This document shows positions 1-11,809 of a stretch of 11,853 nucleotides of DNA, piece after piece; position 1 is the stretch's first letter, and each line of letters begins with the position of its first letter. Origin of the DNA: a virus. The position numbers were made by a program, and so were the translations under genes. The DNA is taken from UHGV virus genome UHGV-0355102, one strand, 5' to 3'. The notes under the pieces are model-generated. The model saw nothing but the letters and a program-made list of their open reading frames with translations, searched no databases and was not told where the DNA came from.

Positions 1-599
1 GCCACTCTGGCGGTTTCAGCATGTTGTCTGGCATCATTCGCGTCTGCTGCCGCGGCCTTTTCAGATTCGCATGCCCGGGTCGCCGCTTCTGCAGCTTCAC
101 TGGCTTTTTGTCCGGCTTCAGCCGCCCTGCTGGTTGCCGTCTTTGCACTGTCAGATGCACTCTTCGCACTGGCTGCTGCACTGTCTTTTGACTGTGTGGC
201 CTGAGTGTTTTTTGTCGCCGTGTCTTCATTCAGGCGACGAATAGTGGCAAGGTCATCAGCCACATTATTCTGTATCTGCCGGAAATCTGTCAGCAGTTCT
301 CCGGGTATGCTCACCTCAACAAGACTGCGGCGTAACAGCATATTGAGCGTCACCGTACTTTCGGTCCCCTCAATACGCACACGTCCGTAGACAGCAGTCT
401 TCCCTTTCACCGTCACCGAAACCGCATACTCCCCCGGATCCATCGTCATTCCGTAATATCCACCTTCACGGGTCACTGCCGACGCACTGGTGCCGCTGAG
501 CGCATCCGGTGAAACTGTCAGCGCCGTCAGGGTAATATTTGCTCCTGATATCGCCTCACCATCAGGAGATTTCAGCGTCCCCGAAACAACAACACTCAC
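1..599 (-). CDS. Tail fibre protein, N-terminal part (partial; continues beyond the left edge of the window)
   Basis: The minus-strand frame is open from 599 down to position 1; I checked every in-frame triplet and found no stop. GTG start at 597-599 overlaps the TGA stop of the upstream gene (GTGA), with a GGAGG Shine-Dalgarno 6 nt upstream. The translation begins MSVVVSGTLKSPDGEAISGANITL..., a beta-rich domain of about 90 aa followed by Ala/Ser/Lys-rich repeats (DSAAASAKSASDSAKTATSRAAEAGQKASEAAEAA), which matches from memory the N-terminal architecture of enterobacterial prophage tail fibres. Not in the ORF track because it has a GTG start and no stop inside the window. Confidence 0.6.
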   Translation of the reverse strand, partial: MSVVVSGTLKSPDGEAISGANITLTALTVSPDALSGTSASAVTREGGYYGMTMDPGEYAVSVTVKGKTAVYGRVRIEGTESTVTLNMLLRRSLVEVSIPGELLTDFRQIQNNVADDLATIRRLNEDTATKNTQATQSKDSAAASAKSASDSAKTATSRAAEAGQKASEAAEAATRACESEKAAAADANDARQHAETARV

Positions 600-1246
600 A
601 CTCCACCTCCGTTAAACACTTTTTTACGGGCAGACAATGCACTGTCTGCCCCCTGTTTGATCCCAAGTTGCTCAACAAAACTCTGATAATGCTGCGCAGC
701 CAGCCCCGATTCTGCGCCACCGGCAGCATCCTTACTGAAAGCGCGAAACAACATCCAGTCCACCAGTGGGTTAACATAAGCATCTTCCAGTGGAACTGGC
801 GTATCATCGTCCTGCGTCAGAACATACACTGCCTCCGGTATCCGGCTTACCACTGCATCAATACTTATCTCTTTGTCAGGAGCAGGAAACAGCCAGAATA
901 CGCGCGGGGACAGGTCGTTGCTGATAAAACATTCAGGAATGCCCTTCATTGTGAGCCACTCAGGATACTGCGCATCCAGCACCTCCCGGGATAATGGTCT
1001 GACTGCACTACCGTCACTGAGGCATATCACGTCAAGAAGTTGTATTACACCATCGGGCAAAACCTGACGGGCGCCCGGAACACAACTGATTGTTTCCAGG
1101 CTTGCGCCAGCATCCGGTCTCGCCAGAATCACTGCCCTCACAGCATCATTGTAATAATCGCACAATTCCTGCAGGGGCCAGCGAACCATCATCGGGTCAA
1201 CCAGTTGTGTATTCACACGTCCGATGATTTCTGTAATCGTCGTCAT
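596..1246 (-). CDS. Hypothetical virion/morphogenesis protein (216 aa)
   Basis: 216-aa ORF in the same orientation as the structural operon, with its ATG overlapping the stop of the upstream gene at 1246 and its stop overlapping the tail fibre start. No family recognised from sequence alone. Confidence 0.55.
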   Translation of the reverse strand: MTTITEIIGRVNTQLVDPMMVRWPLQELCDYYNDAVRAVILARPDAGASLETISCVPGARQVLPDGVIQLLDVICLSDGSAVRPLSREVLDAQYPEWLTMKGIPECFISNDLSPRVFWLFPAPDKEISIDAVVSRIPEAVYVLTQDDDTPVPLEDAYVNPLVDWMLFRAFSKDAAGGAESGLAAQHYQSFVEQLGIKQGADSALSARKKVFNGGGV

Positions 1247-1809
1247 CAGTAAAACCTTTGTCTGCGGACAGGATTGCGGTATGAGGAGTACGGACTTGTC
1301 GTCAGTGTGTCGCGATATGCCCGACGGATACCCTCAGAAAACAGCACAGAGAAATACTGTGCGCGCGACGGGTCTGACCATGAAACCCCGGTCTGCATGA
1401 ACAACCGTTCAAGCGCCCCTGCTGCCACTTCTTCAGACCATGCCCGCAGTTCATCCTGCACCTGACGGCTCCCTGCTTTCGGAGCAACGGCATAAAGCAC
1501 ACTCACCTCTCCGGGCGAACAGGCAAAATGCATTACCCGCCCCGGGCGGATTTCTACATCATGACCGGCAAAAAGCTCACGCCCGTCAGCGAGGATACGA
1601 ATAATATGTACGCACTCTTCATTCTCCGCGTCATATGGCAGCACACAGTCCTCTCCAGCTGACGGTGACAGCGTGGCTTCACGGCGGCACAACAGGGACT
1701 GACGGCAGAATGCCACTGCCGACATGGATAACGCATCCGTCATCATAATGTTCAGCGGACCACTGATATGGCGACGGACATACGGTAAAAAATCAGTCAG
1801 TTCCGCCAT
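1246..1809 (-). CDS. Hypothetical virion/morphogenesis protein (about 187 aa)
   Basis: The six-frame ORF runs 1246..1869, but the ATG at 1807-1809 (MAELTDFLPYV...) is preceded by GGAGA about 8 nt upstream and gives only a 17-nt overlap with the upstream gene, so I prefer it. Function unknown. Confidence 0.5.
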   Translation of the reverse strand: MAELTDFLPYVRRHISGPLNIMMTDALSMSAVAFCRQSLLCRREATLSPSAGEDCVLPYDAENEECVHIIRILADGRELFAGHDVEIRPGRVMHFACSPGEVSVLYAVAPKAGSRQVQDELRAWSEEVAAGALERLFMQTGVSWSDPSRAQYFSVLFSEGIRRAYRDTLTTSPYSSYRNPVRRQRFY

Positions 1810-2254
1810 GCTGTTCAGTCTCCGCAACACGACGGCGAAATGCCTCACGCACACGGATACGGAATGCATCAGCCGTTTCTTTCGGGTCTTTGTGAATATT
1901 CAGCTCTTCTGCCTCACACAACGTTGCCAGCCGTGCGGACGTGAGTTTGCTCAAATCCACATCCTGACCACCAACGCTAACCACAAAACTGTTCTCCGCT
2001 TCTGCAAGAGCAACCTGTTCTCTTTCCTGCGCCTGCTGTGCCTGCCGCAACTGCTCATCCTGTTGTTGCTTTTTCAGTACGCCATCAAGCTCTTCATGAC
2101 GAACCCAGACGTCAGAAAAGGCCAGCAACTGCCAAGCAAACGCATTGTCAACATGCACCGGCTCAAGACGCGGGAACAGTGTACGACTCCCGGTAAGGGT
2201 ATCCTTTTTCACGGGTTTGGGGCCGATATAGACAACGGCAATTTTTTCGCTCAT
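1793..2254 (-). CDS. Hypothetical protein (153 aa) in the head/neck module
   Basis: ORF with GGGGAA Shine-Dalgarno upstream of the ATG at 2252-2254; central Gln/Glu-rich predicted helical segment. Function unknown. Confidence 0.5.
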   Translation of the reverse strand: MSEKIAVVYIGPKPVKKDTLTGSRTLFPRLEPVHVDNAFAWQLLAFSDVWVRHEELDGVLKKQQQDEQLRQAQQAQEREQVALAEAENSFVVSVGGQDVDLSKLTSARLATLCEAEELNIHKDPKETADAFRIRVREAFRRRVAETEQHGGTD

Positions 2255-2268
2255 ATAATTCCCCGGGT

Positions 2269-2291
2269 AAAAAAGCCCGCATGACGCGGGC
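2269..2291 (-). terminator. Intrinsic terminator-like hairpin (minus strand) downstream of the 129-aa gene
   Basis: On the minus strand: GCCCGC - 5-nt loop - GCGGGC (plus coordinates 2275-2291) followed directly by TTTTTT (plus-strand A-run 2269-2274). Confidence 0.45.
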
Positions 2292-2304
2292 CAGAAGGTT
2301 TATA

Positions 2305-2694
2305 TCAGTAACCCACCACGGTATAACGCAGCAGAACATTCAGGGTGCCGGTTGCAGCGGCAGTCTTAATGGTGACAGTAACCAGCTCCCCGTCACGCAG
2401 TGTGGTGTACGGCTCCACGGGCACATATCTGGCAAATTTTGCAGAAACAGCTTCGCTGTTATCGATGAGAACATGCTCACCGGACTTAATGCTGACGGTT
2501 GCAGTACCCAGACCGCCCGTTGAAACCAGTTGCAGTGAGTTGATACGGATACCAACTGGCAGTGAAAGAAGATGAATAACACTGTCCGCTTCCGCAGCGT
2601 TCACTGTAAACACACCTTCTGCCACCGACTCATTACCGTGCGTACCTGAATAAATCCGCTCACTCAGTGATGGAGCAAGGATAGTCTTTGCCAT
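2305..2694 (-). CDS. Hypothetical small virion protein (129 aa), possibly a capsid-associated/decoration protein
   Basis: ORF immediately downstream of the major capsid gene with AGGAG upstream; predicted beta-rich; bracketed by hairpin plus T-run elements on both sides. Functional assignment is a guess from position only. Confidence 0.5.
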   Translation of the reverse strand: MAKTILAPSLSERIYSGTHGNESVAEGVFTVNAAEADSVIHLLSLPVGIRINSLQLVSTGGLGTATVSIKSGEHVLIDNSEAVSAKFARYVPVEPYTTLRDGELVTVTIKTAAATGTLNVLLRYTVVGY

Positions 2695-2709
2695 AATTAA
2701 TGACTCCTG

Positions 2710-2732
2710 AAAAAGCCGGGCGATAACCCGGC
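2710..2732 (-). terminator. Terminator/attenuator-like hairpin after the capsid gene (minus strand)
   Basis: On the minus strand: GCCGGG - TTATCG loop - CCCGGC (plus 2715-2732) followed by TTTTT (plus-strand A-run 2710-2714), just downstream of the capsid stop at 2749. Confidence 0.4.
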
Positions 2733-2748
2733 ATGGGGAAAGGAAAAA

Positions 2749-3963
2749 TCACAGCTTCACTGCGGTATCAATGGCAATCACGCCGTGATCCTGCATCTTG
2801 CCGCTCTTCTCGGGGAAACGGATTTTTTTCAGACCGTTGATCCAGCTGATTGCTATCTCAGTACGGTTATCCATATCCGTTTTCTTCTCAACCATGTTGA
2901 AGTGACCGCCGCCCTTCTGACCGTACGCATTCGCCAGCGCCTGAGCCCCCAGCAGCATGGCACGGTCGATGTTGGTTGCAGCAGCCTTTTCTGCCATCGT
3001 TGCCGTAAGGTCATTGTTCGACACCATAACCTTTGACCCCTGATAGAAACGGATCGGCATCCCCGCATACTTACGGACCAGAATATTGCGCCACATCGCA
3101 CATTCGCCTTTGAACAGCGGATGGTTAAAACCTTTTGAGCGGTTTACGGCACGCGTCATCATCTGGTTCCAGTCCTTGCCGGACGTGGAGGTGTACCAGT
3201 CATTCCACTGACGCGGCGTGACGTAGAGGACGTAATACGGATCTTCGCCATACAATTCATCACCGGACAGGCGTACCGGTTGTAACGGATGAGCCATCTC
3301 GTCAATAAACAACGAGAGATTATCGACCAGCGCAAGGGTGAACAGGTCAGACTGGTCAATACTCTCAAAACTCGTCGCATCCCCACCGAAAAAATGACGA
3401 TCATGCGTCGGCGGCAGTACGTCGTTGATCATGATTTTTTTGAATTCAGGGTGATCTGCCGTTGGCAGAATGGTGTCATCAGCAACAAAATCACCGCGGG
3501 CACCGGCAAGATGCACTATCGCACACTGGTCTTGCAGGTCGTTAAAGTACGTACCCAGCAGCGTTCTGGCAGAGGATGCCAGGTTGAACTTCGTACGCTG
3601 CTGGCTCATACGTCCGCCCGCATCCACCAGGTGACGGCCCTGATTAATTTTCAGGGAAAAATCAGCATGGCTGAGGTCTTCACCACGGCCTTCAACGCGC
3701 TCATCCCCCATCGTCGGACGTTTAGAGAGTTTGTGCATGATGCTGAACGTCACTTCATCACCGGCCTGTTTGTTGAGGTCCGTGATTCGCACAACCGGTG
3801 CACCTGCACTGGTCTGCTTCGTGCTTTTCTTGTCAGGCGAAACTGCTTTTGGTGCATCCTGCTGTTCAGTGAGAATATTCACCATCGAGCGGTTTCGGTT
3901 GGCAGCCGTGAAAAGCGCCACCTGATACAGCTTATTCGCCTGGGCTGTTGTTACTGTGGTCAT
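2749..3963 (-). CDS. Major capsid (coat) protein, putative
   Basis: 404-aa ORF with a strong GAAGGAG Shine-Dalgarno, directly downstream of an acidic scaffold-like gene in a terminase-portal-scaffold-capsid order. Size is consistent with a capsid protein. Assignment is by position and size, not a verified alignment. Confidence 0.7.
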   Translation of the reverse strand: MTTVTTAQANKLYQVALFTAANRNRSMVNILTEQQDAPKAVSPDKKSTKQTSAGAPVVRITDLNKQAGDEVTFSIMHKLSKRPTMGDERVEGRGEDLSHADFSLKINQGRHLVDAGGRMSQQRTKFNLASSARTLLGTYFNDLQDQCAIVHLAGARGDFVADDTILPTADHPEFKKIMINDVLPPTHDRHFFGGDATSFESIDQSDLFTLALVDNLSLFIDEMAHPLQPVRLSGDELYGEDPYYVLYVTPRQWNDWYTSTSGKDWNQMMTRAVNRSKGFNHPLFKGECAMWRNILVRKYAGMPIRFYQGSKVMVSNNDLTATMAEKAAATNIDRAMLLGAQALANAYGQKGGGHFNMVEKKTDMDNRTEIAISWINGLKKIRFPEKSGKMQDHGVIAIDTAVKL

Positions 3964-3985
3964 TACGTCAGTACTCCTTCAGTGG

Positions 3986-4993
3986 TTACCCGAGTTTTTC
4001 CAGAATCGCGTCAATTTCAGCGTCCGTCATGCCTCGCATGGCTGCTTCAATTTCGGTATGGGAAGCACCAAGTAACCGTTCAAAATTATCACCGGTTCCG
4101 ACGGAAGCCGTGTTGCCAAGCTCTGACGGGGAAGCAGGCACTGCCATCTCCCGTTCAGCGGCTTTCACTTTTTCTTCTGCCGTTTTCCGGATATCAGTGT
4201 TGTCTGCCTTGTCATTAGAAGGCGGCTCACTGGCTTCACCGAAAGCGAGCTGCGTACGGCGGGCCACTTCGGCGAAACGTTCAGTGAGCGGTTTGTCTTT
4301 CCATACGGGGTCATTCTGGAGCTTCCCGTCGATGGATACGGCAACCGAGAAGCGATCCGGATCGGAGTTCTGCCACGTTTTCAGCACCGGCACGTCATTC
4401 ATTGCATCAAGAACCGGTGATAAATCCTCACCACCATGACCTTCTGCCTGCTGTGCTGATTGCTGAACACGGGACTGGAGATAGTTATTTTTACGGATAA
4501 GCGAAGCCACCGCGTCACCAATTTCCGGATACATCTCCCTGATACGGGCAATCTTCTCATCAGAGATTTTTTCGTTTTCCGGTAACGGTGCGGGTTTCAT
4601 ACCGGCCTGGTGAATCTGAGACGTCAGCAGTTCAACCAGGCGTTTTTCTTCGGCTATCTGTCCCCGAAGAAGTGCGGCTTCCTGTTCGGCCCGCTGCTTA
4701 CCGGAACGTTCAGCCTCAAGGACTTCATAGGGAATGACGTGTTTACCATCGCGGGTGAGCACACCCTTCGCCTCCGGCTCCTTCACGTCCTGCGTCTGCT
4801 CAGCACTGGCATCCGGCGTCGGTGCCGCAGTGTTATCGCCCGTCTGTGTCTGTGCTGCCTCATCCGCATGATTTTCTGTGGCGGCCTCTGTCACGCCGTC
4901 CTGTTCGTGACCGTCAATATCCACATCCCCAAGTCCTTCCAGCATTTTTTCCAGTTGTTCCGGGGTTTCTTCACCCGTAAATTCAAAATCCAT
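3986..4993 (-). CDS. Scaffolding protein, putative
   Basis: 335-aa ORF between portal and capsid genes; highly acidic, Ala/Glu/Gln-rich, with a low-complexity predicted helical composition typical of phage scaffold proteins; GGAG Shine-Dalgarno 7 nt upstream of the ATG. Confidence 0.55.
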   Translation of the reverse strand: MDFEFTGEETPEQLEKMLEGLGDVDIDGHEQDGVTEAATENHADEAAQTQTGDNTAAPTPDASAEQTQDVKEPEAKGVLTRDGKHVIPYEVLEAERSGKQRAEQEAALLRGQIAEEKRLVELLTSQIHQAGMKPAPLPENEKISDEKIARIREMYPEIGDAVASLIRKNNYLQSRVQQSAQQAEGHGGEDLSPVLDAMNDVPVLKTWQNSDPDRFSVAVSIDGKLQNDPVWKDKPLTERFAEVARRTQLAFGEASEPPSNDKADNTDIRKTAEEKVKAAEREMAVPASPSELGNTASVGTGDNFERLLGASHTEIEAAMRGMTDAEIDAILEKLG

Positions 4994-5106
4994 AAATAAC
5001 TCCGCATGGTCTGTTTATCGGACAGATCCGAATGGTTGAGTAAATAAGGCTTATCGCTGCCCCCGCGAATAAGCGCACCGCTCCCGGGACGCTTATCTCC
5101 GGAAAC

Positions 5107-5130
5107 AAAAAACCCCGTACGATGACGGGG
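5107..5130 (-). terminator. Intrinsic terminator-like hairpin between the portal and scaffold genes (minus strand)
   Basis: On the minus strand: CCCCGT - 6-nt loop - ACGGGG (plus 5113-5130) followed by TTTTTT (plus-strand A-run 5107-5112), immediately after the portal stop at 5151-5153. Confidence 0.5.
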
Positions 5131-5656
5131 TTCCGTTAAGTTCAGGATATTCATAGCGGCAATTCATGCATCCGCTGTTGTAGTGTATGTAGCATCTGTT
5201 GCTGAAGAGCTTCCTGCTCCTGTTCCATATTCTGTATGCCGGTAATGATTTCTGCCGTATGCGCCTGGTTGAGCGCATCCACATAACGCTGTCCCTGTGC
5301 CGCGGCGACATCCCGTTGTGCGCCAGCATTATCCCGTTGCGCAGCTGCCTGTGCCCTGGCAGCTTCTGCTTCCAGTTTAGCCACCCGGCCTGCCATTTCG
5401 CGCATCTGCAGTTCCTGTTGTTGCTGCTCCTGGGCCTGTTGCTGCTGAGCGGCCTGCTGCTCTTCCGGGGTCATCTCATCCGGTGATTTTGGTGTCCCCA
5501 GCGCCGCACGAATACGTTCGACAAATTCCTGTTTCTGCGGCACATCCAGAAGGTTAACCCACAGGTCGAGCACGACGGCCTGCACCTGAGGTGGCAGCCC
5601 CTGAATAACCTCTGACATTCGCTGTGCAAGCTGTGCCTTAAACGCCGGTGTCTGCT

Positions 5657-5830
5657 GAACAGGAGCCAGCGCAATATGTGTATTTAACCTTGAAATATCA
5701 TTGGTCAGTTCACCATTATCACCTTCAGCATTGAGAACAATGGGATGTTTTCCGGGTTGAACAGGATTTTCAGGTTGCCAGCCAGCAGTTTCAGGTCATG
5801 CAGGAGTCGGAAAAACTTATCCAGGACACG
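5657..5830. repeat. Left 174-bp repeat block: two adjacent 87-bp units (5657-5743 and 5744-5830)
   Basis: 5657-5743 is the exact reverse complement of 6060-6146, and 5744-5830 is the exact reverse complement of 6147-6233. Both checked base by base at 87/87 identity. Confidence 0.9.
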
Positions 5831-6059
5831 ATGGGGGTTTATTCCGCATTTCTCGGGCAGGATTCAAATGCATCGTCCGGCGTGGCGATCAGCAACCTGG
5901 TGGAGCAGGGAGCCACAACCCTTGCCGAAATCAACGATAACTACCAGTTTGCCTGCCAGCAGGTGGGAAGGCTGTTGCTCGCTTATCTTCTCGATGGCCT
6001 GAAAAAGCGGCGTAATCATGCGGTGGTGATTAATCGTGATGATCGCCAGCGTCGCCAGA

Positions 6060-6233
6060 CCATTGTTCTCAATGCTGAAGGTGATAATGGTGAACTGACC
6101 AATGATATTTCAAGGTTAAATACACATATTGCGCTGGCTCCTGTTCCGTGTCCTGGATAAGTTTTTCCGACTCCTGCATGACCTGAAACTGCTGGCTGGC
6201 AACCTGAAAATCCTGTTCAACCCGGAAAACATC
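6060..6233. repeat. Right 174-bp repeat block: two adjacent 87-bp units (6060-6146 and 6147-6233)
   Basis: Inverted partners of the left block; the pairs are interleaved rather than nested (left = X'Y, right = XY'), so the region is not a simple inverted repeat. All four units are portal coding sequence. Confidence 0.9.
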
Positions 6234-7468
6234 AGCAACGCTTTTCTGATTTTTTCGGGCCGGATTCAGTTTAATAATGCCATCCGGGCGCTCGATCTGC
6301 TCCATCAGCTCGTTGTCTGACAACTGGGTGGCATCCTCGTCCATAATCACGCGTTTGGCCTGAAGCAACCACGTCAGTTTTATACGACGAAAATTCACCT
6401 CATCCTGTGCCGGAATGGCCCGGGAAATCAGCCCGTAAGGCTCCCCGGTTTTATCCTTCCGGTATCCCCAGAAGGGAACCAGCGGGAACATCCCCTGCGG
6501 CGCACTGCAGGGGCGATCCACAATAAAGTGCGGTCCCACAAACCAGGCTTCACGAATACGACTTACCCGCCCGACTCTCACCTGCACCCGCCCGGATGCC
6601 ACAGCCACCGCATGCATCAGATTATTTTTATCAAAGGCCACCACCCGTCCATTACTGAGTTCAATCACCGGAAGACGCTCGAATGTACGGTAATAAACCA
6701 CCTGAAGCAGCACACGACGGCGTTCACGCTGAAGCCATTCGTTCTCCTTACGATCCCATGACTGATACTCTTCCCATGCACTCATCAACGGACTGGGCTG
6801 GCCTTCAGTAACCGTGGTATCGACAAAACCACGCCAGTCATCAATGGCATAATCGATAACCTGAGCCATTCCCGGGAATGTGGCTTTTGCCTCATCGGTA
6901 TCCATCCAGCGGCGGCGCATCAGCCAGCGGCAGTCACTTAAATCAGCTTCCCGGCTGAGCCAGTCCCAGAACACTTCATTCCGGCTGACAGTAGACACCT
7001 TAAACTCAGGCCCGAACGGATCGCTGTTCCGTCTGACCTCCACCCAGCTGAGCCCCGCCTTGATTTGTTCCGCATAGGCATCAGAGCGGGCTTTATTCAT
7101 ATTGCCAAGGCGGCATGCATCGGCAAATTCAGCATTAATAGCTTCAGCCAGTTTTTCAGTTTCATCATCTGGCTCGTCTGACATCACCACCAGATCAGTC
7201 CGTGTTTTGGCCTCCATTCCCAGAACACCATCAACGGTAGGCGCGATGAGGTTATGGATAGTCATCGGCTGACCGCGATCTTTCAGTACCTGAAGAACTT
7301 CTGGTGGCAACTGGTCACCATCGTAATACGCACAGGCCTTGTTTGCGGCATCGCGCCATTTAGGCTGACTGTCAATATCAGAACAAAGCGCCTGTAACTG
7401 GCGCTGAGAAAAACGCGGCGTGGCTCCGTTGTCGTTTTTCGTCGCCATGGTATTAGTTTCATTTTTCA

Positions 7469-9175
7469 TCAGTGAGCCATCCAGTGTGTGGTTCTGCGTT
7501 TATCCGTTTTCTGTCTTACCCTCACCGGCATTCTGGCGCGCATCTCCTGGGCAATCATGTAGCTCATAAGCTGATCATCAAAACAGCCTTCCTGTGCATT
7601 CATGGAGCCTTTCGCGTCATAAACGTAGGTGTTCATTTCTGATAATGTGCCCGTCCAGCGGATCCCCGACAGGCCGTTATTCAGCAGCGTTTTCATTCCC
7701 TCAGTCAGGACCGGTTTACTCTGGCGGGTTGTCAGCCAGCCAAGACGGGGCGTATCGTCGTCATATGCCTGGTCAAGGTGCTGTTCGTTGTAGATATAAC
7801 GCGTCGGATAGAGTTCCCGGAGTTTCAGGATAACGGCATGTCCGTGATTGTTACGCTCCGGCCCCACAAACGCGTTGTTGTACATACGGCAGACCTGCGC
7901 AATGAGATGAGCGAAAAGCTCCGCATCGAGATGACCAAACCAGTGGGCTACCTGCTCACCATTACTACATCTGATGATATCCAGCGATGAGCGGTCTCCG
8001 TGCTCCAGCCCCTCAGCGGTATCCGCTCCGCATACATACTCTTCATCCGGATCCGGTAGCTCCCAGACCAGCAGATAATTCATCAGCGTCCGGTGCTGTT
8101 CGGCTTTATTCCCGTCACGCAGAGACTGCGCTTTGGTCTTCGTTCCTGTAACCGGTTCAATGTCATAAACAATCAGCGGTGGCGAACAGAATGACTCTGC
8201 CTGCAGCGTGCTTTCCGCACTGAACACCCGTCGTCCGGACGTCAGAAACGCCTCCTGTGGTGTTGAGGGAAACTCCTGCTTCATTTCCTCACGCTGTTCA
8301 GTTTCCTTGCAGATGTACCAGTGTTTCTGCTCATCGGTAAGCGTGATGTTCATTGCTTTTTCAACCGCAGAAAAATACGCTGTTTTTTCCCGTGACAGCT
8401 TAAGTCCGCTTTCCGGCACTCTGGCGCTGTATTTGAGATCCTGCCACCAGGCGTAAAAATGGAATTTATAATCCTGTGGCGTCAGCGCCAGCCCTGATGC
8501 AGTGATTTCCTGTGCCCGGTTACTCATCTCGTAAAAATCGCCACCCACACCTTCAGCAGTGGATTCATCAAAAATAATGCACTCATCAGAGACGGCATTA
8601 AGTGTACCGGTTCGCAGCTCTTTCGCCTTAGCCGGATATTTTGCGCAAATTTTGCCGTGCTCTGAGATATGCAGGCGCTGCACCGTACCTGAACGGAATG
8701 AGGTTGCCACCTGGATACTCGAGCCGTGCCCAAACAGGATATAGCCACCGCTGGCTCCGCTACGACGTTCAACGATGGTGAATGAGGCTCTCAGCCAGTC
8801 AGGAAGATGATCAAACGGTACAGCAATTTTGGTGCGGAAAATTTCACTGGCAGCCTGTTTATCCTGAGCGACAATCCCGCATTTGAGATGCGGTATGAAT
8901 AATGCCTGGTCGAGAAGATAAATATCAATGGCCGTGGAAAACCCCAGCTGGCGTGCTTTCAGGATAATATTTTTATTGTGCATGCTCCGGAACAACTGGC
9001 GCTGCGCCGGTCGCATTCTGAAGGTGACCAGCTCACCTTTTTCGTTCTGTATCTTGTAGAGATGATTGAGCCGCCACCAGGGATTGCTCAGTTTAGTCAT
9101 GATGAACAGACGTTGTTCGGCCTCTGTCATTTCTGACGGTTCATCACATCGCGGTTCATTCTTCCGGAATGTCAT
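7469..9175 (-). CDS. Terminase large subunit
   Basis: 568-aa ORF between the small terminase and portal genes; GGGGAG Shine-Dalgarno 5 nt upstream of the ATG at 9173-9175; stop overlaps the portal ATG (ATGA). Size and position are typical of a terminase large subunit; a possible Walker-A-like segment lies near the N-terminus. Confidence 0.8.
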   Translation of the reverse strand: MTFRKNEPRCDEPSEMTEAEQRLFIMTKLSNPWWRLNHLYKIQNEKGELVTFRMRPAQRQLFRSMHNKNIILKARQLGFSTAIDIYLLDQALFIPHLKCGIVAQDKQAASEIFRTKIAVPFDHLPDWLRASFTIVERRSGASGGYILFGHGSSIQVATSFRSGTVQRLHISEHGKICAKYPAKAKELRTGTLNAVSDECIIFDESTAEGVGGDFYEMSNRAQEITASGLALTPQDYKFHFYAWWQDLKYSARVPESGLKLSREKTAYFSAVEKAMNITLTDEQKHWYICKETEQREEMKQEFPSTPQEAFLTSGRRVFSAESTLQAESFCSPPLIVYDIEPVTGTKTKAQSLRDGNKAEQHRTLMNYLLVWELPDPDEEYVCGADTAEGLEHGDRSSLDIIRCSNGEQVAHWFGHLDAELFAHLIAQVCRMYNNAFVGPERNNHGHAVILKLRELYPTRYIYNEQHLDQAYDDDTPRLGWLTTRQSKPVLTEGMKTLLNNGLSGIRWTGTLSEMNTYVYDAKGSMNAQEGCFDDQLMSYMIAQEMRARMPVRVRQKTDKRRTTHWMAH

Positions 9176-9971
9176 CCAGTCTCCCCGAATTACTCATTTC
9201 ATGCAGCGATGACACGATGTCACTGACAGGCGTAACAACGCCCCGACGCTGGCTGGTCAGAATATCGGTTTCCGCTCTGAGTTTATCTCTGGCAGCGTTG
9301 GTTCTTTCCCGGTCAGCACGAAGTTTTGGTGCTGTTTCAGCCAGAACGTCCAGCGTCAGCAATGAGCGTTCAATTGACTCGATACGGGCAATATTCCGGT
9401 CAAGAGCCTGTTCAGCTTTGAGTATTTTGTCGTACAGAGCAACGCGGGTTTCCACGTCAGCCGCCTCTTTCAGGTCGGCGAACATTTTTTTCAGTGTTCC
9501 TGTTACTGAAAGTGCGCGGGCCCGGGTAAACACCAGTTCATCGGCAAGTTCCATTCCGACTGCATCATCTATGAGGTTATCTGCCTCGAGATACTTCGCG
9601 TATCCACGGTGTCTGACGGCGTGGGTGTTACGCTGAGAAAAAGCATTTGAAGGTGGCAAAAGTCTGGAACCACGAGTCCGTTTCGTTTCTGCCAAATTTG
9701 CGCATTTTTCATCACAACCATCATCGCCTGAAGGCTCGTCATGACTGGAGTTGCCGTCAGATTTCTGCGCACTTTTTTGATCATCAATTTGCGCATTTTT
9801 CTGCGCACTTTTCTCTGTATTTCTGGGGGAGTGTTTGCGCAGTTTAATGTACCGCCGAGCCGTGTCATAACTGATATTGTTCTGACGGCACCAGTCCTGA
9901 AGCTTTATGCCGGTTTTGACATGTTCGCGTCGAAATGCCTGCTCCAGCTTTTTCCAGTCCAGCTTTGCCAT
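9156..9971 (-). CDS. Terminase small subunit, putative (DNA-binding packaging protein)
   Basis: 271-aa ORF immediately upstream of, and overlapping by 20 nt, the large terminase gene; AAGGTG Shine-Dalgarno; basic N-terminus consistent with a DNA-binding domain; charged, predicted helical C-terminal half. Assignment is mainly positional. Confidence 0.55.
   Translation of the reverse strand: MAKLDWKKLEQAFRREHVKTGIKLQDWCRQNNISYDTARRYIKLRKHSPRNTEKSAQKNAQIDDQKSAQKSDGNSSHDEPSGDDGCDEKCANLAETKRTRGSRLLPPSNAFSQRNTHAVRHRGYAKYLEADNLIDDAVGMELADELVFTRARALSVTGTLKKMFADLKEAADVETRVALYDKILKAEQALDRNIARIESIERSLLTLDVLAETAPKLRADRERTNAARDKLRAETDILTSQRRGVVTPVSDIVSSLHEMSNSGRLDDIPEE
9695..9812. repeat. Cluster of short direct repeats inside the small terminase gene
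   Basis: AATTTGCGCATTTTT occurs at 9695-9709 and 9786-9800; TTTCTGCGCACTTTT occurs at 9762-9776 and 9798-9812; a related GTTTGCGCAG lies near 9833-9842. On the coding strand these give KSAQK/KNAQ peptide repeats. Confidence 0.6.
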
Positions 9972-10510
9972 GTCACCTTCTGACGTTCTCTGTTAAAAAC
10001 TGATGCACAATGACTGCTGTAAATTTTCAGATTTCACACAGCAGAGCCATGTCTGATTAATGTTTAACCTTATTTAGGTTATATCCGCTTCATTCCACTA
10101 CAGCACCAGATAGGCTGCCTCGCGGATAAATGCCAAAGTCTCCTGATATAGAAACCCGTCGCCACATCGAGCGCTGATCAACATTTGTATATTCACTGCG
10201 ACAGAAAGAATTTATTTTATTGAATAGTTAGAAATACAGAATTGCATGCTTTATAAGCATTGACGCACACTTCATTTTTAGCAATATATTCTGTTCTCAT
10301 AGACGATCAGCCCTGCATGCACTGCCGGACACCGTCGGCAATTTTACAGACCTAAGAGGCAATACCAAAAAGCTAACGCGCTTTATCAAGACTTGAACAA
10401 CCAACCAATAAAAAAAGCACCAGTACCGCTACCAATGCCCATTTCGTCGTTGTTCACAGCATTCTGTGTACCCACTGTATTTCGCGTCATATCACCACGT
10501 CAGACAATCC

Positions 10511-10539
10511 TTAAGGATTACATAAGATTTACGCATAAT
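10511..10539 (+). promoter_or_regulatory. Candidate sigma-70-like promoter for the cargo gene (weak)
   Basis: TTAAGG (10511-10516), 17-bp spacer, CATAAT (10534-10539), about 35 nt upstream of the ATG at 10574. An alternative is TTGACG at 10260-10265 with TATATT at 10285-10290 (19-bp spacer). Both are hexamer matches picked by eye only. Confidence 0.2.
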
Positions 10540-10573
10540 AATGCCCATTTTCAACACAGACAAGGGAATTTAT

Positions 10574-11155
10574 ATGTTAAATCAAACGCTAACAAAATCT
10601 CTTCTTATATTTTTACTTGTCATAATCGTTTCTGTATCCATCATATACATTGTAAGAACTCCAGTCAGACTTGATGTGAACGATGTCACTGAGATTAACC
10701 AGAAACATCCCATTATTTTTCTCATCCGGCATGGGGAAAGATGCGATCGCTCCCAAAGAATATGTCTTTCAGCACATGAGGGAATCACAGTAAACGGAGC
10801 TAACAAAGCTCAACAATATGGAGATAAATTCAGAAGAATGTTTCCATACTACAGTCTCTATTCTACAGACACACTCCGAACAATGCAGACAGCCACTTTT
10901 TTTTCGGGAGGTAAGACAGCAACTATTCCGGACATATCGACATGTGATGATAACGCAGTAAATAATATCCTTAAAATATCAAAATCAGATCATGTTACTG
11001 TGATTTTCACACATAATCACTGTCTGTCCAGAATTGCAAAAAAAATGAATGGATGGAGATTTAAACCTGATTATATGGGCACACTGGTTCTGCATCGGGA
11101 AAATCACAATCTGATTCTCGACGGACATTTAAAACCAAACGAGCTTACCCAGTGA
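10574..11155 (+). CDS. Ais/PmrG-family histidine phosphatase (LPS core heptose(II)-phosphate phosphatase-like), exported; prophage cargo gene
   Basis: 193-aa ORF from the ATG at 10574 with AAGGGA 7 nt upstream (the track ORF starts at an earlier ATG, 10541). Hydrophobic N-terminal signal/anchor, then an RHGERCDRS motif (histidine phosphatase RHG signature) and IFTHNHCL...FKPDY, which match my recollection of E. coli Ais across most of the length. Opposite strand to the phage genes and visibly AT-rich. Confidence 0.8.
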   Translation: MLNQTLTKSLLIFLLVIIVSVSIIYIVRTPVRLDVNDVTEINQKHPIIFLIRHGERCDRSQRICLSAHEGITVNGANKAQQYGDKFRRMFPYYSLYSTDTLRTMQTATFFSGGKTATIPDISTCDDNAVNNILKISKSDHVTVIFTHNHCLSRIAKKMNGWRFKPDYMGTLVLHRENHNLILDGHLKPNELTQ

Positions 11156-11206
11156 TCCATTTGTTGATAATGCACTGGCATTGATTCAGGTTATATCTCT
11201 CCTCAT

Positions 11207-11231
11207 AAAAAAGGCCAGCGATTGAGCTGGC
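11207..11231 (-). terminator. Intrinsic terminator after Rz/Rz1 (minus strand), possibly bidirectional
   Basis: GCCAGC - 6-nt loop - GCTGGC (11214-11231); on the minus strand the hairpin is followed by TTTTTT (plus-strand A-run 11207-11212). It sits between the convergent Rz stop (11236) and the cargo gene stop (11155). Confidence 0.5.
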
Positions 11232-11235
11232 TCTG

Positions 11236-11694
11236 TTAATCGAGGCATTGCATCCTGATGTACTCCTGCAGGTAGTTAACCTGCGCGGTTATCTTGTCGA
11301 TTCCACTTCGGAGACGGTAATAATTGAGTTCAGCATCTGCTGTAAGTCCTGAGCTTTCTCCATCGCCCATGCCGCTGGCTCCGGTCGTTGACTTTGCACA
11401 GGTGGCGGCGACTTGCAGGCGCTTACGCCCAGCAGAAACATCAGCACGGAGACTTTCAATAGTCGCGTTAGCATCAGCAAGCTCCCTGGTGTATCTGGCA
11501 TCGAGTGCAGCAACATCACGCTGGCGCTGCTGTATGTCAGCAATGGTGGCGTTCGCCTGGCTGAGTTTTGTCTTCGCATCATCTCGCTGCTCTTTGTAGG
11601 TGATGGCGTTATCACGGTAATGGTCTGTTGCCAGCCACAGCGATCCACAACCAAGCAGCAGGACAATAAGCACGCCATACAGCACACGATTCAT
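11236..11694 (-). CDS. Rz: Spanin, inner-membrane subunit (Rz, i-spanin)
   Basis: 152-aa protein from the ATG at 11692-11694 (MNRVLYGVLIVLLLGCGSLW...HYRDNAITYKEQRD...RQRDVAALDARYTRELADA...), closely resembling lambda Rz as I recall it: N-terminal transmembrane helix plus a periplasmic coiled coil. The track ORF starts 19 codons further upstream, which I do not accept. Confidence 0.9.
   Translation of the reverse strand: MNRVLYGVLIVLLLGCGSLWLATDHYRDNAITYKEQRDDAKTKLSQANATIADIQQRQRDVAALDARYTRELADANATIESLRADVSAGRKRLQVAATCAKSTTGASGMGDGESSGLTADAELNYYRLRSGIDKITAQVNYLQEYIRMQCLD
11289..11474 (-). CDS. Rz1: Spanin, outer-membrane lipoprotein subunit (Rz1, o-spanin), embedded in Rz in the +1 frame
   Basis: A 61-aa ORF lying entirely inside Rz in another frame: MLTRLLKVSVLMFLLGVSAC, a lipoprotein signal with a VSAC lipobox, followed by a proline-rich mature peptide KSPPPVQSQRPEPAAW. 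The exact start is uncertain; an alternative Met lies 11 codons downstream. Confidence 0.75.
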   Translation of the reverse strand: MLTRLLKVSVLMFLLGVSACKSPPPVQSQRPEPAAWAMEKAQDLQQMLNSIITVSEVESTR

Positions 11695-11695
11695 A

Positions 11696-11809
11696 TCACC
11701 ACCAACGGATTGCCCAGACCAGAACAGCAATTGCCACAATACGAATGGCAAAAGCTGCCGCTCTTGTTAAATCCAGACTTGCTGGCGTCTCCACCTCAAT
11801 GCCTTTCAT
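11696..11809 (-). CDS. Small single-pass membrane protein (37 aa), or the C-terminal end of a longer gene entering from beyond the right edge
   Basis: ATG at 11807-11809 with GAGG about 9 nt upstream; encodes MKGIEVETPASLDLTRAAAFAIRIVAIAVLVWAIRWW; stop 1 nt before the Rz ATG. The same frame is open to the window edge (11853), so it could instead be the tail of a longer upstream gene. The other two frames contain stops. Confidence 0.3.
   Translation of the reverse strand: MKGIEVETPASLDLTRAAAFAIRIVAIAVLVWAIRWW

What the first reader, a model, noticed from the sequence alone, without database searches (positions are those of the whole stretch)
5657..6233. Portal gene split by an inverted 403-bp core flanked by perfect interleaved 87-bp inverted duplications
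Call the four units X' (5657-5743), Y (5744-5830), X (6060-6146) and Y' (6147-6233), with M the 229 bp between Y and X (5831-6059). The plus strand reads C'-X'-Y-M-X-Y'-A'. A colinear portal would read C'-X'-M'-Y'-A', so the original 403-bp piece X'M'Y' is present as its reverse complement (YMX) while an extra copy of each 87-bp end is kept outside it, a net gain of 174 bp. The result is that the portal N-terminal ORF stops at 6069 after 25 junk codons, the middle 105 codons sit on the opposite strand (track ORF 5798..6160), and the C-terminal 168 codons form a separate ORF (5151..5618). Joining the pieces in the order A-Y-M-X-C restores one continuous frame of about 714 aa. The repeats are 100 percent identical and exactly equal in length, which points to a recent fold-back or template-switch inversion-duplication that inactivated a prophage, or to an assembly or construction artefact. 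It is not a classical invertase switch: no single inversion between either repeat pair restores an intact gene.
Basis: seen in the sequence. Interest (0 to 1): 0.8.

Follow-up and report, generated by a model that had tools for sequence, protein, structure and literature searches.

The report
Scrambled phage portal gene, probably artefact
A 403-bp piece of a prophage portal gene is flipped and bracketed by two perfect 87-bp inverted copies; a public genome identical at every other base has the gene intact, so this is most likely a sequence artefact or at best a one-off mutation.

Summary
Two interleaved, 100% complementary 87-nt inverted repeats (5657-5743/6060-6146 and 5744-5830/6147-6233) bracket a 403-bp core (5744-6146). 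That core is the reverse complement of the matching piece of a P22-type portal gene in a Stx-phage-like (POCJ13-like, Sepvirinae) E. coli prophage. Undoing the change removes 174 bp and restores a 714-aa portal.

The restored 11,679 bp are identical, with 0 mismatches and 0 gaps, to NCBI contig UGBV01000003.1 (GCA_900449035.1), where the portal is intact. The rearranged form was found nowhere else:
- 0 of 5,426 complete E. coli genomes and 0 of 50,697 phage records carry it.
- Neither junction occurs in IMG/VR, the GTDB representative genomes or JGI metagenomes.
- The truncated ORFs are not among 153 billion indexed gene positions.

Both junctions are blunt, with no microhomology and no filler, and the two duplications are exactly equal in length. 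No recombinase is annotated nearby, relatives have no repeats here, and neither possible inversion restores the gene.

The topology is the known "dupINVdup" or staggered-break signature. I judge it most likely non-biological (an in-silico edit or an assembly mis-join), less likely a single recent mutation, and not a programmed switch. Interest is low.

The parts
5151..5656 (-). Segment C: the native 3' end of the portal gene (168 codons plus stop). The ORF 5151-5618 (155 aa) lies inside it.
   Evidence: Colinear with the reference portal. The ORF hits PF16510 P22_portal at profile positions 507-594.
5657..5743 (-). X': 87 bp of portal sequence in its native position and orientation. It is one arm of inverted-repeat pair I2.
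   Evidence: I2, 100% complementary. Identity to FORC_069 runs up to 5743 and stops there.
5744..5830 (+). Y: the extra inverted copy of the 87 bp that natively lie at 6147-6233. It forms the left end of the flipped 403-bp core.
   Evidence: I1, 100% complementary; 5744-6146 matches POCJ13 on the opposite strand at 100%.
5831..6059 (+). M: 229 bp of single-copy portal sequence, present only in inverted orientation.
   Evidence: Flipping it back gives a sequence identical to UGBV01000003.1.
6060..6146 (+). X: the extra inverted copy of 5657-5743. It forms the right end of the flipped core and supplies the 25 junk codons and the stop (6069-6071) that truncate the N-terminal ORF.
6147..6233 (-). 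Y': 87 bp of portal sequence in its native position and orientation. It is the other arm of pair I1.
   Evidence: the right colinear block starts at 6147.
6234..7469 (-). Segment A: the native 5' part of the portal gene (412 codons). Together with Y' it forms the 441 native codons of ORF 6069-7469.
   Evidence: PF16510 profile positions 7-388, E = 1.2e-83. Reference annotation.
5743..5744 (.). Junction 1 (X'|Y): blunt, 0 bp microhomology, no inserted bases.
   Evidence: A 40-mer and a 24-mer spanning it are absent from viral contigs, genome contigs and metagenome contigs.
6146..6147 (.). Junction 2 (X|Y'): blunt, 0 bp microhomology, no inserted bases.
   Evidence: A 37-mer and a 24-mer spanning it are absent from the same three collections.

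Best explanation
This is not a biological device. It is a one-off scrambling of the portal gene of a Stx-phage-like (POCJ13-like, Sepvirinae) E. coli prophage, and it most likely arose in the sequence file rather than in a cell. The window equals the reverse complement of NCBI contig UGBV01000003.1, about 341,070-352,748 (GCA_900449035.1), except for one change. The 403-bp interval X'M'Y' (record positions about 346,690-347,092) was replaced by its reverse complement, while the outer 87 bp on each side were also kept in place. Written out, the result is [left piece ending in X'] + reverse complement of [X'M'Y'] + [right piece starting with Y']. Two non-biological routes give this. One is joining three pieces that overlap by a fixed 87 bases (such as assembly-graph segments) without trimming the overlaps and with the middle piece flipped. 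The other is a deliberate in-silico 'inversion with flanking duplications' edit that used a single length parameter. Shown here: the anatomy, the identity to the intact public record, and the absence of the structure elsewhere. Inferred: the non-biological origin. Whatever the origin, the consequence is a portal ORF truncated at 466 aa, so a prophage carrying it could not build a capsid portal.
For: 1. With the rearrangement undone, all 11,679 bases match UGBV01000003.1 with 0 mismatches and 0 gaps (L013 covers 1-11246, L006 covers 2295-11679). That record encodes an intact 714-aa PF16510 portal. The next-closest genomes differ by 4-7 SNPs, so the window tracks this one record exactly.
2. The truncated 466-aa ORF and the 120-aa opposite-strand ORF are not on record among 153 billion gene positions from NCBI, ENA, JGI and Logan. 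The C-terminal ORF occurs only on a 529-bp contig fragment.
3. Neither junction is found in IMG/VR, the GTDB representative genomes or JGI metagenomes. None of 422 matching E. coli complete genomes or 194 matching phage records has the arrangement.
4. Both junctions are blunt, with 0 bp microhomology and no filler, and the two duplications are exactly equal at 87 and 87 bp. This fits a single fixed overlap or length parameter. Natural staggered-break inversions have unequal duplications, for example 380 and 128 bp (PMC5080602).
5. The repeats are 100% identical, so nothing has diverged since the event.
Against: No reads are available, so a genuine mutation in a sub-clone or re-sequenced derivative of the same strain cannot be excluded. 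A very recent event would also leave every other base identical. The specific assembly-graph version has no positive support. The matching public assembly is colinear. No polymorphism among 22 related loci coincides with the core boundaries, so the core does not look like a collapsed repeat segment. 87 is not a default k of the assemblers I know of (my own knowledge, not tested). 'Not on record' does not prove absence, because the index keeps only called genes and not every assembly is included.
Confidence: 0.7

Rival explanations
1. A genuine, very recent mutation in one clone, produced in a single event. One route is repair of two staggered double-strand breaks with fill-in of 87-nt overhangs (the staggered-break model). 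The other is a replication template switch to the opposite strand and back (a four-point template-switch, dupINVdup-type event). Either would inactivate the prophage's portal gene.
For: The topology A-B-C to A-C'-B'-A'-C is exactly the described dupINVdup / staggered-break signature (PMC5338099; PMC5080602). The repeats are 100% identical and all flanking sequence is identical to a close relative, as expected for a recent event. Prophage structural genes are free to decay in a lysogen (established knowledge).
Against: Natural cases show unequal duplications, whereas these are exactly equal. Template switching is normally primed by microhomology (established knowledge, not checked in the papers read), and there is none at either junction. 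The structure is absent from every collection searched, including gene catalogues of NCBI assemblies. I found no bacterial or phage precedent in the three literature searches. 87-bp perfect repeats should recombine, so the structure would be unstable in a recA+ host (inference).
Confidence: 0.27
2. A programmed invertible segment: a site-specific invertase or phase-variation switch that toggles portal expression or creates alternative portal forms.
For: Only the bare presence of long perfect inverted repeats around a segment inside a gene.
Against: The repeats are not native. In all relatives each 87-bp unit is single-copy and the gene is colinear. No recombinase is annotated among the late genes that fill the window. 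Inversion at either pair still gives truncated products of 466 and 550 aa. Interleaved repeat pairs are not the architecture of known invertase systems (my own knowledge).
Confidence: 0.01
3. An IS- or transposon-mediated inversion (intramolecular replicative transposition).
For: Such events produce inversions with duplicated, inverted sequence at both ends (established knowledge).
Against: The duplicated units are portal coding sequence, not a mobile element. No transposase or IS ends lie in 5151-7469, because all of it aligns to the portal gene.
Confidence: 0.01

Closest known systems
dupINVdup complex structural variant (paired-duplication inversion; Brand et al. 2015, Collins et al. 2017, PMC5338099)
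   Same: The topology is identical. The reference order A-B-C becomes A-C'-B'-A'-C, an inverted middle with each flank present twice in opposite orientation.
   Different: The described cases are in human genomes, at kilobase-to-megabase scale as I recall them (only one 5.1-Mb example appears in the text I read). They are attributed to replication-based repair, and as far as I know their duplications differ in size. Here the scale is 403 bp with 87-bp flanks in a prophage gene, the duplication lengths are exactly equal, the junctions are blunt, and there is no evidence that the structure exists in DNA.
Staggered-break inversion signature in Drosophila (Ranz et al. 2007 model; PMC5080602, PMC3355041)
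   Same: Inverted duplications of sequence that is single-copy in the ancestral arrangement sit at both ends of an inversion.
   Different: The natural examples are chromosomal inversions with unequal duplications (for example 380 and 128 bp). They are fixed or polymorphic in populations. This one is unique to a single sequence.
Short-range template-switch mutations (four-point model, PMC7954356; quasipalindrome-associated template switching in E. coli)
   Same: One excursion of the nascent strand onto the opposite strand and back can produce an inversion with flanking duplication in a single event.
   Different: Those events are usually tens of bases long and are seeded by short complementarity (my own knowledge). 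Here the copied stretch is 403 bp and there is 0 bp of microhomology at either switch point.
P22-type portal protein (Pfam PF16510) of Sepvirinae / Stx-like prophages, e.g. Shigella phage POCJ13 gp49
   Same: The affected gene is this portal. The fragments cover profile positions 7-594 in colinear order, and the core is 100% identical to POCJ13 over its 403 bp.
   Different: In the window the gene is broken into three ORFs on two strands.

Membership tests
dupINVdup / staggered-break inversion signature | The central segment is inverted relative to the ancestral arrangement. | tested here: met
   5744-6146 matches POCJ13 on the opposite strand at 100%. Flipping it back gives 100% identity to UGBV01000003.1.
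dupINVdup / staggered-break inversion signature | [quoted passage not shown] | tested here: met
   Two 87-nt pairs at 100% complementarity. The reference intervals overlap by 87 bp on each side. References are 174 bp shorter.
dupINVdup / staggered-break inversion signature | The rearranged allele exists in the DNA of an organism (reads or PCR across both junctions). | not testable with these tools
   No read data. Junctions are absent from all collections and from 5,426 E. coli genomes.
Replication template-switch mutation | Microhomology at the switch points. | tested here: not met
   0 bp at all four comparisons for the two junctions.
Site-specific invertase switch (Hin/Gin/Cin, Fim-type, shufflon) | The inverted repeats are native recombination sites conserved in relatives. 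| tested here: not met
   Each unit is single-copy and the gene is colinear in 422 E. coli genomes, 194 phages and 20 fetched loci.
Site-specific invertase switch (Hin/Gin/Cin, Fim-type, shufflon) | A linked recombinase gene. | tested here: not met
   The reference annotation of the whole window lists tail fiber, structural proteins, capsid, portal, terminases, a phosphatase and lysis genes only. Sequence beyond the window was not examined.
Site-specific invertase switch (Hin/Gin/Cin, Fim-type, shufflon) | At least one orientation gives an intact product. | tested here: not met
   The present state gives 466 aa, the X'/X isomer 466 aa and the Y/Y' isomer 550 aa, against 714 aa for the wild type.
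P22-like portal protein (PF16510) | A match to the family profile above the gathering score. | tested here: met
   282.1, 75.1 and 46.7 bits for the three pieces against a cut-off of 26.1.
P22-like portal protein (PF16510) | A single uninterrupted reading frame. | tested here: not met
   Three ORFs on two strands. The frame is intact only after in-silico reconstruction.
Assembly-graph mis-join (segments overlapping by a fixed k, middle one flipped, overlaps untrimmed) | The two junction duplications have one and the same length. | tested here: met
   87 and 87 nt exactly.
Assembly-graph mis-join (segments overlapping by a fixed k, middle one flipped, overlaps untrimmed) | The segment boundaries coincide with branch points, that is, divergence from a paralogue or variant. 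| tested here: inconclusive
   Among 22 related loci, exact matches run well past both core boundaries and the nearest variant site is 54 bp outside. The rest of the source genome could not be examined.

The most novel reading that the evidence does not exclude
The structure is real DNA: a dupINVdup-type inversion inside a bacterial prophage gene. Its exactly equal 87-bp flanking duplications and blunt, homology-free junctions would then point to a defined-stagger breakage mechanism (paired nicks a fixed distance apart on opposite strands at two sites, filled in and rejoined end to end) rather than to the homology- or microhomology-driven routes known in bacteria. Its interleaved perfect repeats would also make it a metastable allele that can return to wild type by an inversion followed by a deletion.
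Probability: 0.06. Interest if true: 0.5.

Novelty: not a real feature. Interest (0 to 1): 0.1.

Why it matters
If it is an artefact, it matters only as quality control. A gene finder would report a pseudogenised portal and a defective prophage where the matching public record has an intact one. If it were real, it would be a cleanly resolved bacterial example of the inversion-with-paired-duplications class, which the papers I found describe only in humans and Drosophila. It would then raise the question of how two equal 87-nt staggers arise without homology. It has no bearing on phage biology beyond inactivating one prophage.

Tried and rejected
1. Programmed invertase switch. Rejected: the repeats are not native, no recombinase is annotated in the window, and both inversion isomers stay truncated.
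2. IS-mediated inversion. Rejected: every base of the structure is portal coding sequence.
3. Collapsed-repeat segment of a de Bruijn graph. I tested whether the 403-bp core is a maximal exact match to any related portal. It is not, because matches extend 54 bp to several kb beyond both ends. That specific version is unsupported, though the generic fixed-overlap mis-join remains possible.
4. Search for the rearranged allele in public data. I looked up the truncated ORFs, scanned three collections for junction k-mers, and ran megablast against E. coli genomes and phages. All were negative. The only hit for the C-terminal ORF is a 529-bp contig fragment that ends inside the gene, which is unrelated.
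5. Rfam and tRNA scans of the window found nothing.
6. Literature search for a bacterial precedent of an inversion with paired inverted duplications. The searches returned human, Drosophila and yeast work but no matching bacterial case.
7. Tandem-inversion-duplication (TID) remodelling. I considered this from my own knowledge. It would need two further deletions ending exactly at the ends of the inverted copy, which is not parsimonious.

Full report
**What is in the sequence**

The repeat finder reports two inverted-repeat pairs in the window that stand far above all others. They are 5657-5743 with 6060-6146, and 5744-5830 with 6147-6233. Each is 87 nt and 100% complementary, with 316 nt between the arms. 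The next best pair is 30 nt at 73%. A perfect 87-nt inverted pair is expected about 3e-45 times by chance in 11.8 kb.

**What the locus is**

- The window is the late-gene block of a Stx-phage-like prophage of E. coli. It is 99.9% identical to several complete E. coli genomes (FORC_069, NCCP15648 and others). The stretch around the portal (5300-6600) is 99.9% identical to Shigella phage POCJ13, a Sepvirinae, and POCJ13 is about 95% identical over most of the window.
- The reference annotation, mapped onto window coordinates, reads as follows:

| Window coordinates | Strand | Gene |
|---|---|---|
| 1-599 | - | tail fiber |
| 596-1246 | - | adaptor-like DUF6682 protein |
| 1246-2694 | - | three small structural genes |
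| 2749-3963 | - | N4-gp56-type major capsid protein |
| 3986-4993 | - | 335-aa protein |
| 5151-7469 | - | portal |
| 7469-9175 | - | large terminase |
| 9156-9971 | - | small terminase |
| 10574-11155 | + | histidine-phosphatase gene |
| 11236-11809 | - | lysis genes |

- The portal is 714 aa in every relative and belongs to Pfam PF16510, P22_portal.

**Anatomy relative to the intact gene**

- BLAST of the window against POCJ13 gives a left colinear block ending at 5743 and a right colinear block starting at 6147.
- It also gives a 403-bp block, 5744-6146, matching the opposite strand at 100%.
- The reference intervals of neighbouring blocks overlap by 87 bp on each side. The alignment to FORC_069 shows identity ending abruptly after 5743.
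- The window therefore reads [..C' X'] [Y M X] [Y' A'..], where the ancestral order is C' X' M' Y' A'. The middle piece is inverted and each 87-bp end is present twice, for a net gain of 174 bp. This agrees with 1301 against 1127 bp, and 11,853 against 11,679 bp, in every reference.
They hit consecutive parts of the P22_portal profile: positions 7-388, 378-490 and 507-594 of 594.
- The reconstruction translates to 714 aa with only a terminal stop.
- Small corrections: the core carries 134 portal codons, not 105, and the + strand ORF holds 116 of them plus 4 junk codons.

**Where the sequence comes from**

- After the rearrangement is undone, the 11,679 bases are identical to NCBI contig UGBV01000003.1 of assembly GCA_900449035.1, with no mismatch and no gap. 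L013 covers positions 1-11246 and L006 covers 2295-11679. By my arithmetic the window corresponds to the reverse strand of about 341,070-352,748 of that record.
- The next-closest genomes differ at 4-7 positions. One of these is a SNP at window 6288 that, among the 22 loci fetched, only the UGBV01000003.1 loci share.
- In UGBV01000003.1 the portal is a normal 714-aa gene.
- So the window tracks one public record base for base everywhere except for this rearrangement.

**Is the rearranged form seen anywhere else?**

No.
- None of the 422 complete E. coli genomes (of 5,426) or the 194 phage records (of 50,697) that match the region contains it. Each has the colinear gene.
- The 466-aa truncated ORF and the 120-aa opposite-strand ORF are not on record among 153 billion gene positions from NCBI, ENA, JGI and Logan assemblies.
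- The 155-aa C-terminal ORF is on record only because a 529-bp contig happens to end inside the gene.
- Junction-spanning 24- to 40-mers for both junctions are absent from IMG/VR, from the GTDB representative genomes and from JGI metagenomes.

**Junction details**

- Both junctions are blunt. There are no inserted bases, and there is no microhomology in any of the four possible comparisons.
- The two duplications are exactly the same length.
- The repeats have not diverged at all.

**Could it be a switch?**

- The window's annotation has no recombinase.
- The repeats are not native sites, because each unit is single-copy in all relatives.
- Inversion at X'/X still gives a 466-aa product, and inversion at Y/Y' a 550-aa product.
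- After either inversion, the other repeat pair becomes direct. A deletion between those direct copies then restores the wild-type sequence exactly. If the structure existed in a recombination-proficient cell, it would be unstable and could revert in two steps. That is a property of the topology, not evidence of function.

**Comparison with what is known**

- The topology A-B-C to A-C'-B'-A'-C is the "dupINVdup" class of complex structural variant catalogued in human genomes (PMC5338099, citing Brand et al. 2015).
[quoted passage not shown] That model is the only one of three inversion mechanisms that creates duplications at the breakpoints.
- It can also be written as a single four-point template-switch event (PMC7954356, listed).
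- Against a natural origin, reported staggered-break duplications are unequal (380 and 128 bp). Template switching is normally seeded by short complementarity, which is absent here.
- I found no bacterial or phage precedent in three literature searches.

**Weighing the explanations**

Three things fit a non-biological origin best. A fixed 87-base length occurs at both ends. The joins are blunt. Everything else is perfectly identical to a record whose gene is intact. The structure is what results when three pieces overlapping by 87 bases are concatenated without trimming and with the middle piece flipped. It is equally what a scripted "inversion with flanking duplications" edit would give.

I tested one concrete version of the assembly idea, that the 403-bp core is a collapsed repeat segment bounded by divergence from a related portal. 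I found no support: exact matches to 22 related loci run 54 bp to several kb past both ends. I therefore cannot say which non-biological route applies.

A genuine, very recent mutation in a clone of the same strain remains possible, because it too would leave the flanks identical. I give about 0.7 to a non-biological origin, about 0.27 to a real one-off mutation, and about 0.01 each to a programmed switch and an IS-mediated event.

**Verdict**

The feature is not a biological system. Interest is low (0.1). The only reading that would raise it is a real, defined-stagger inversion mechanism in bacteria, to which I give about 6%.

Noticed in passing
window 10574-11155 (+): A histidine-phosphatase-family gene sits on the opposite strand between the lysis genes and the terminase genes. 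It is annotated in relatives as 'lipopolysaccharide core heptose(II)-phosphate phosphatase' and has a weak Pfam His_Phos_1 hit. This is a moron-like position. It is present in some relatives and absent in others: POCJ13 and L003 lack it there.
   Followed up: no
window 9972-10573: About 600 bp without an annotated gene lie between the small terminase and the phosphatase gene. The region contains a terminator-like hairpin on the minus strand at 10440-10415. It is also where similarity to POCJ13 drops to 85% or is lost.
   Followed up: no
window 6288: Among the 22 loci fetched, a single-base difference in the portal gene (G here, A in FORC_069) is shared only with the two loci from UGBV01000003.1. 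Exact matches of 19 of the other 20 loci end just before it. It serves as a lineage marker tying the window to that record.
   Followed up: partly
window 5196-5226 and 5436-5466: CTG-rich direct repeats (81% identical) lie in the 3' part of the portal gene. They probably encode the Gln/Glu-rich C-terminal tail, as in P22-type portals. They are unrelated to the rearrangement.
   Followed up: no
window 9156-9175: The small and large terminase ORFs overlap by 20 bp. The large terminase and the portal share the base at 7469. This is tight translational coupling typical of this gene block.
   Followed up: no
L007 (CP017840.1): This related complete genome lacks gene calls for the portal, capsid and several other genes, and shows 13 gap openings relative to the window. 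It looks like an indel-rich assembly rather than real pseudogenes.
   Followed up: no
L014 and L022: In two related genomes an IS66-family element (TnpA/TnpB/DDE transposase) sits immediately upstream of, or truncating, the large terminase gene. This is a different and genuine way in which this prophage block gets inactivated.
   Followed up: no
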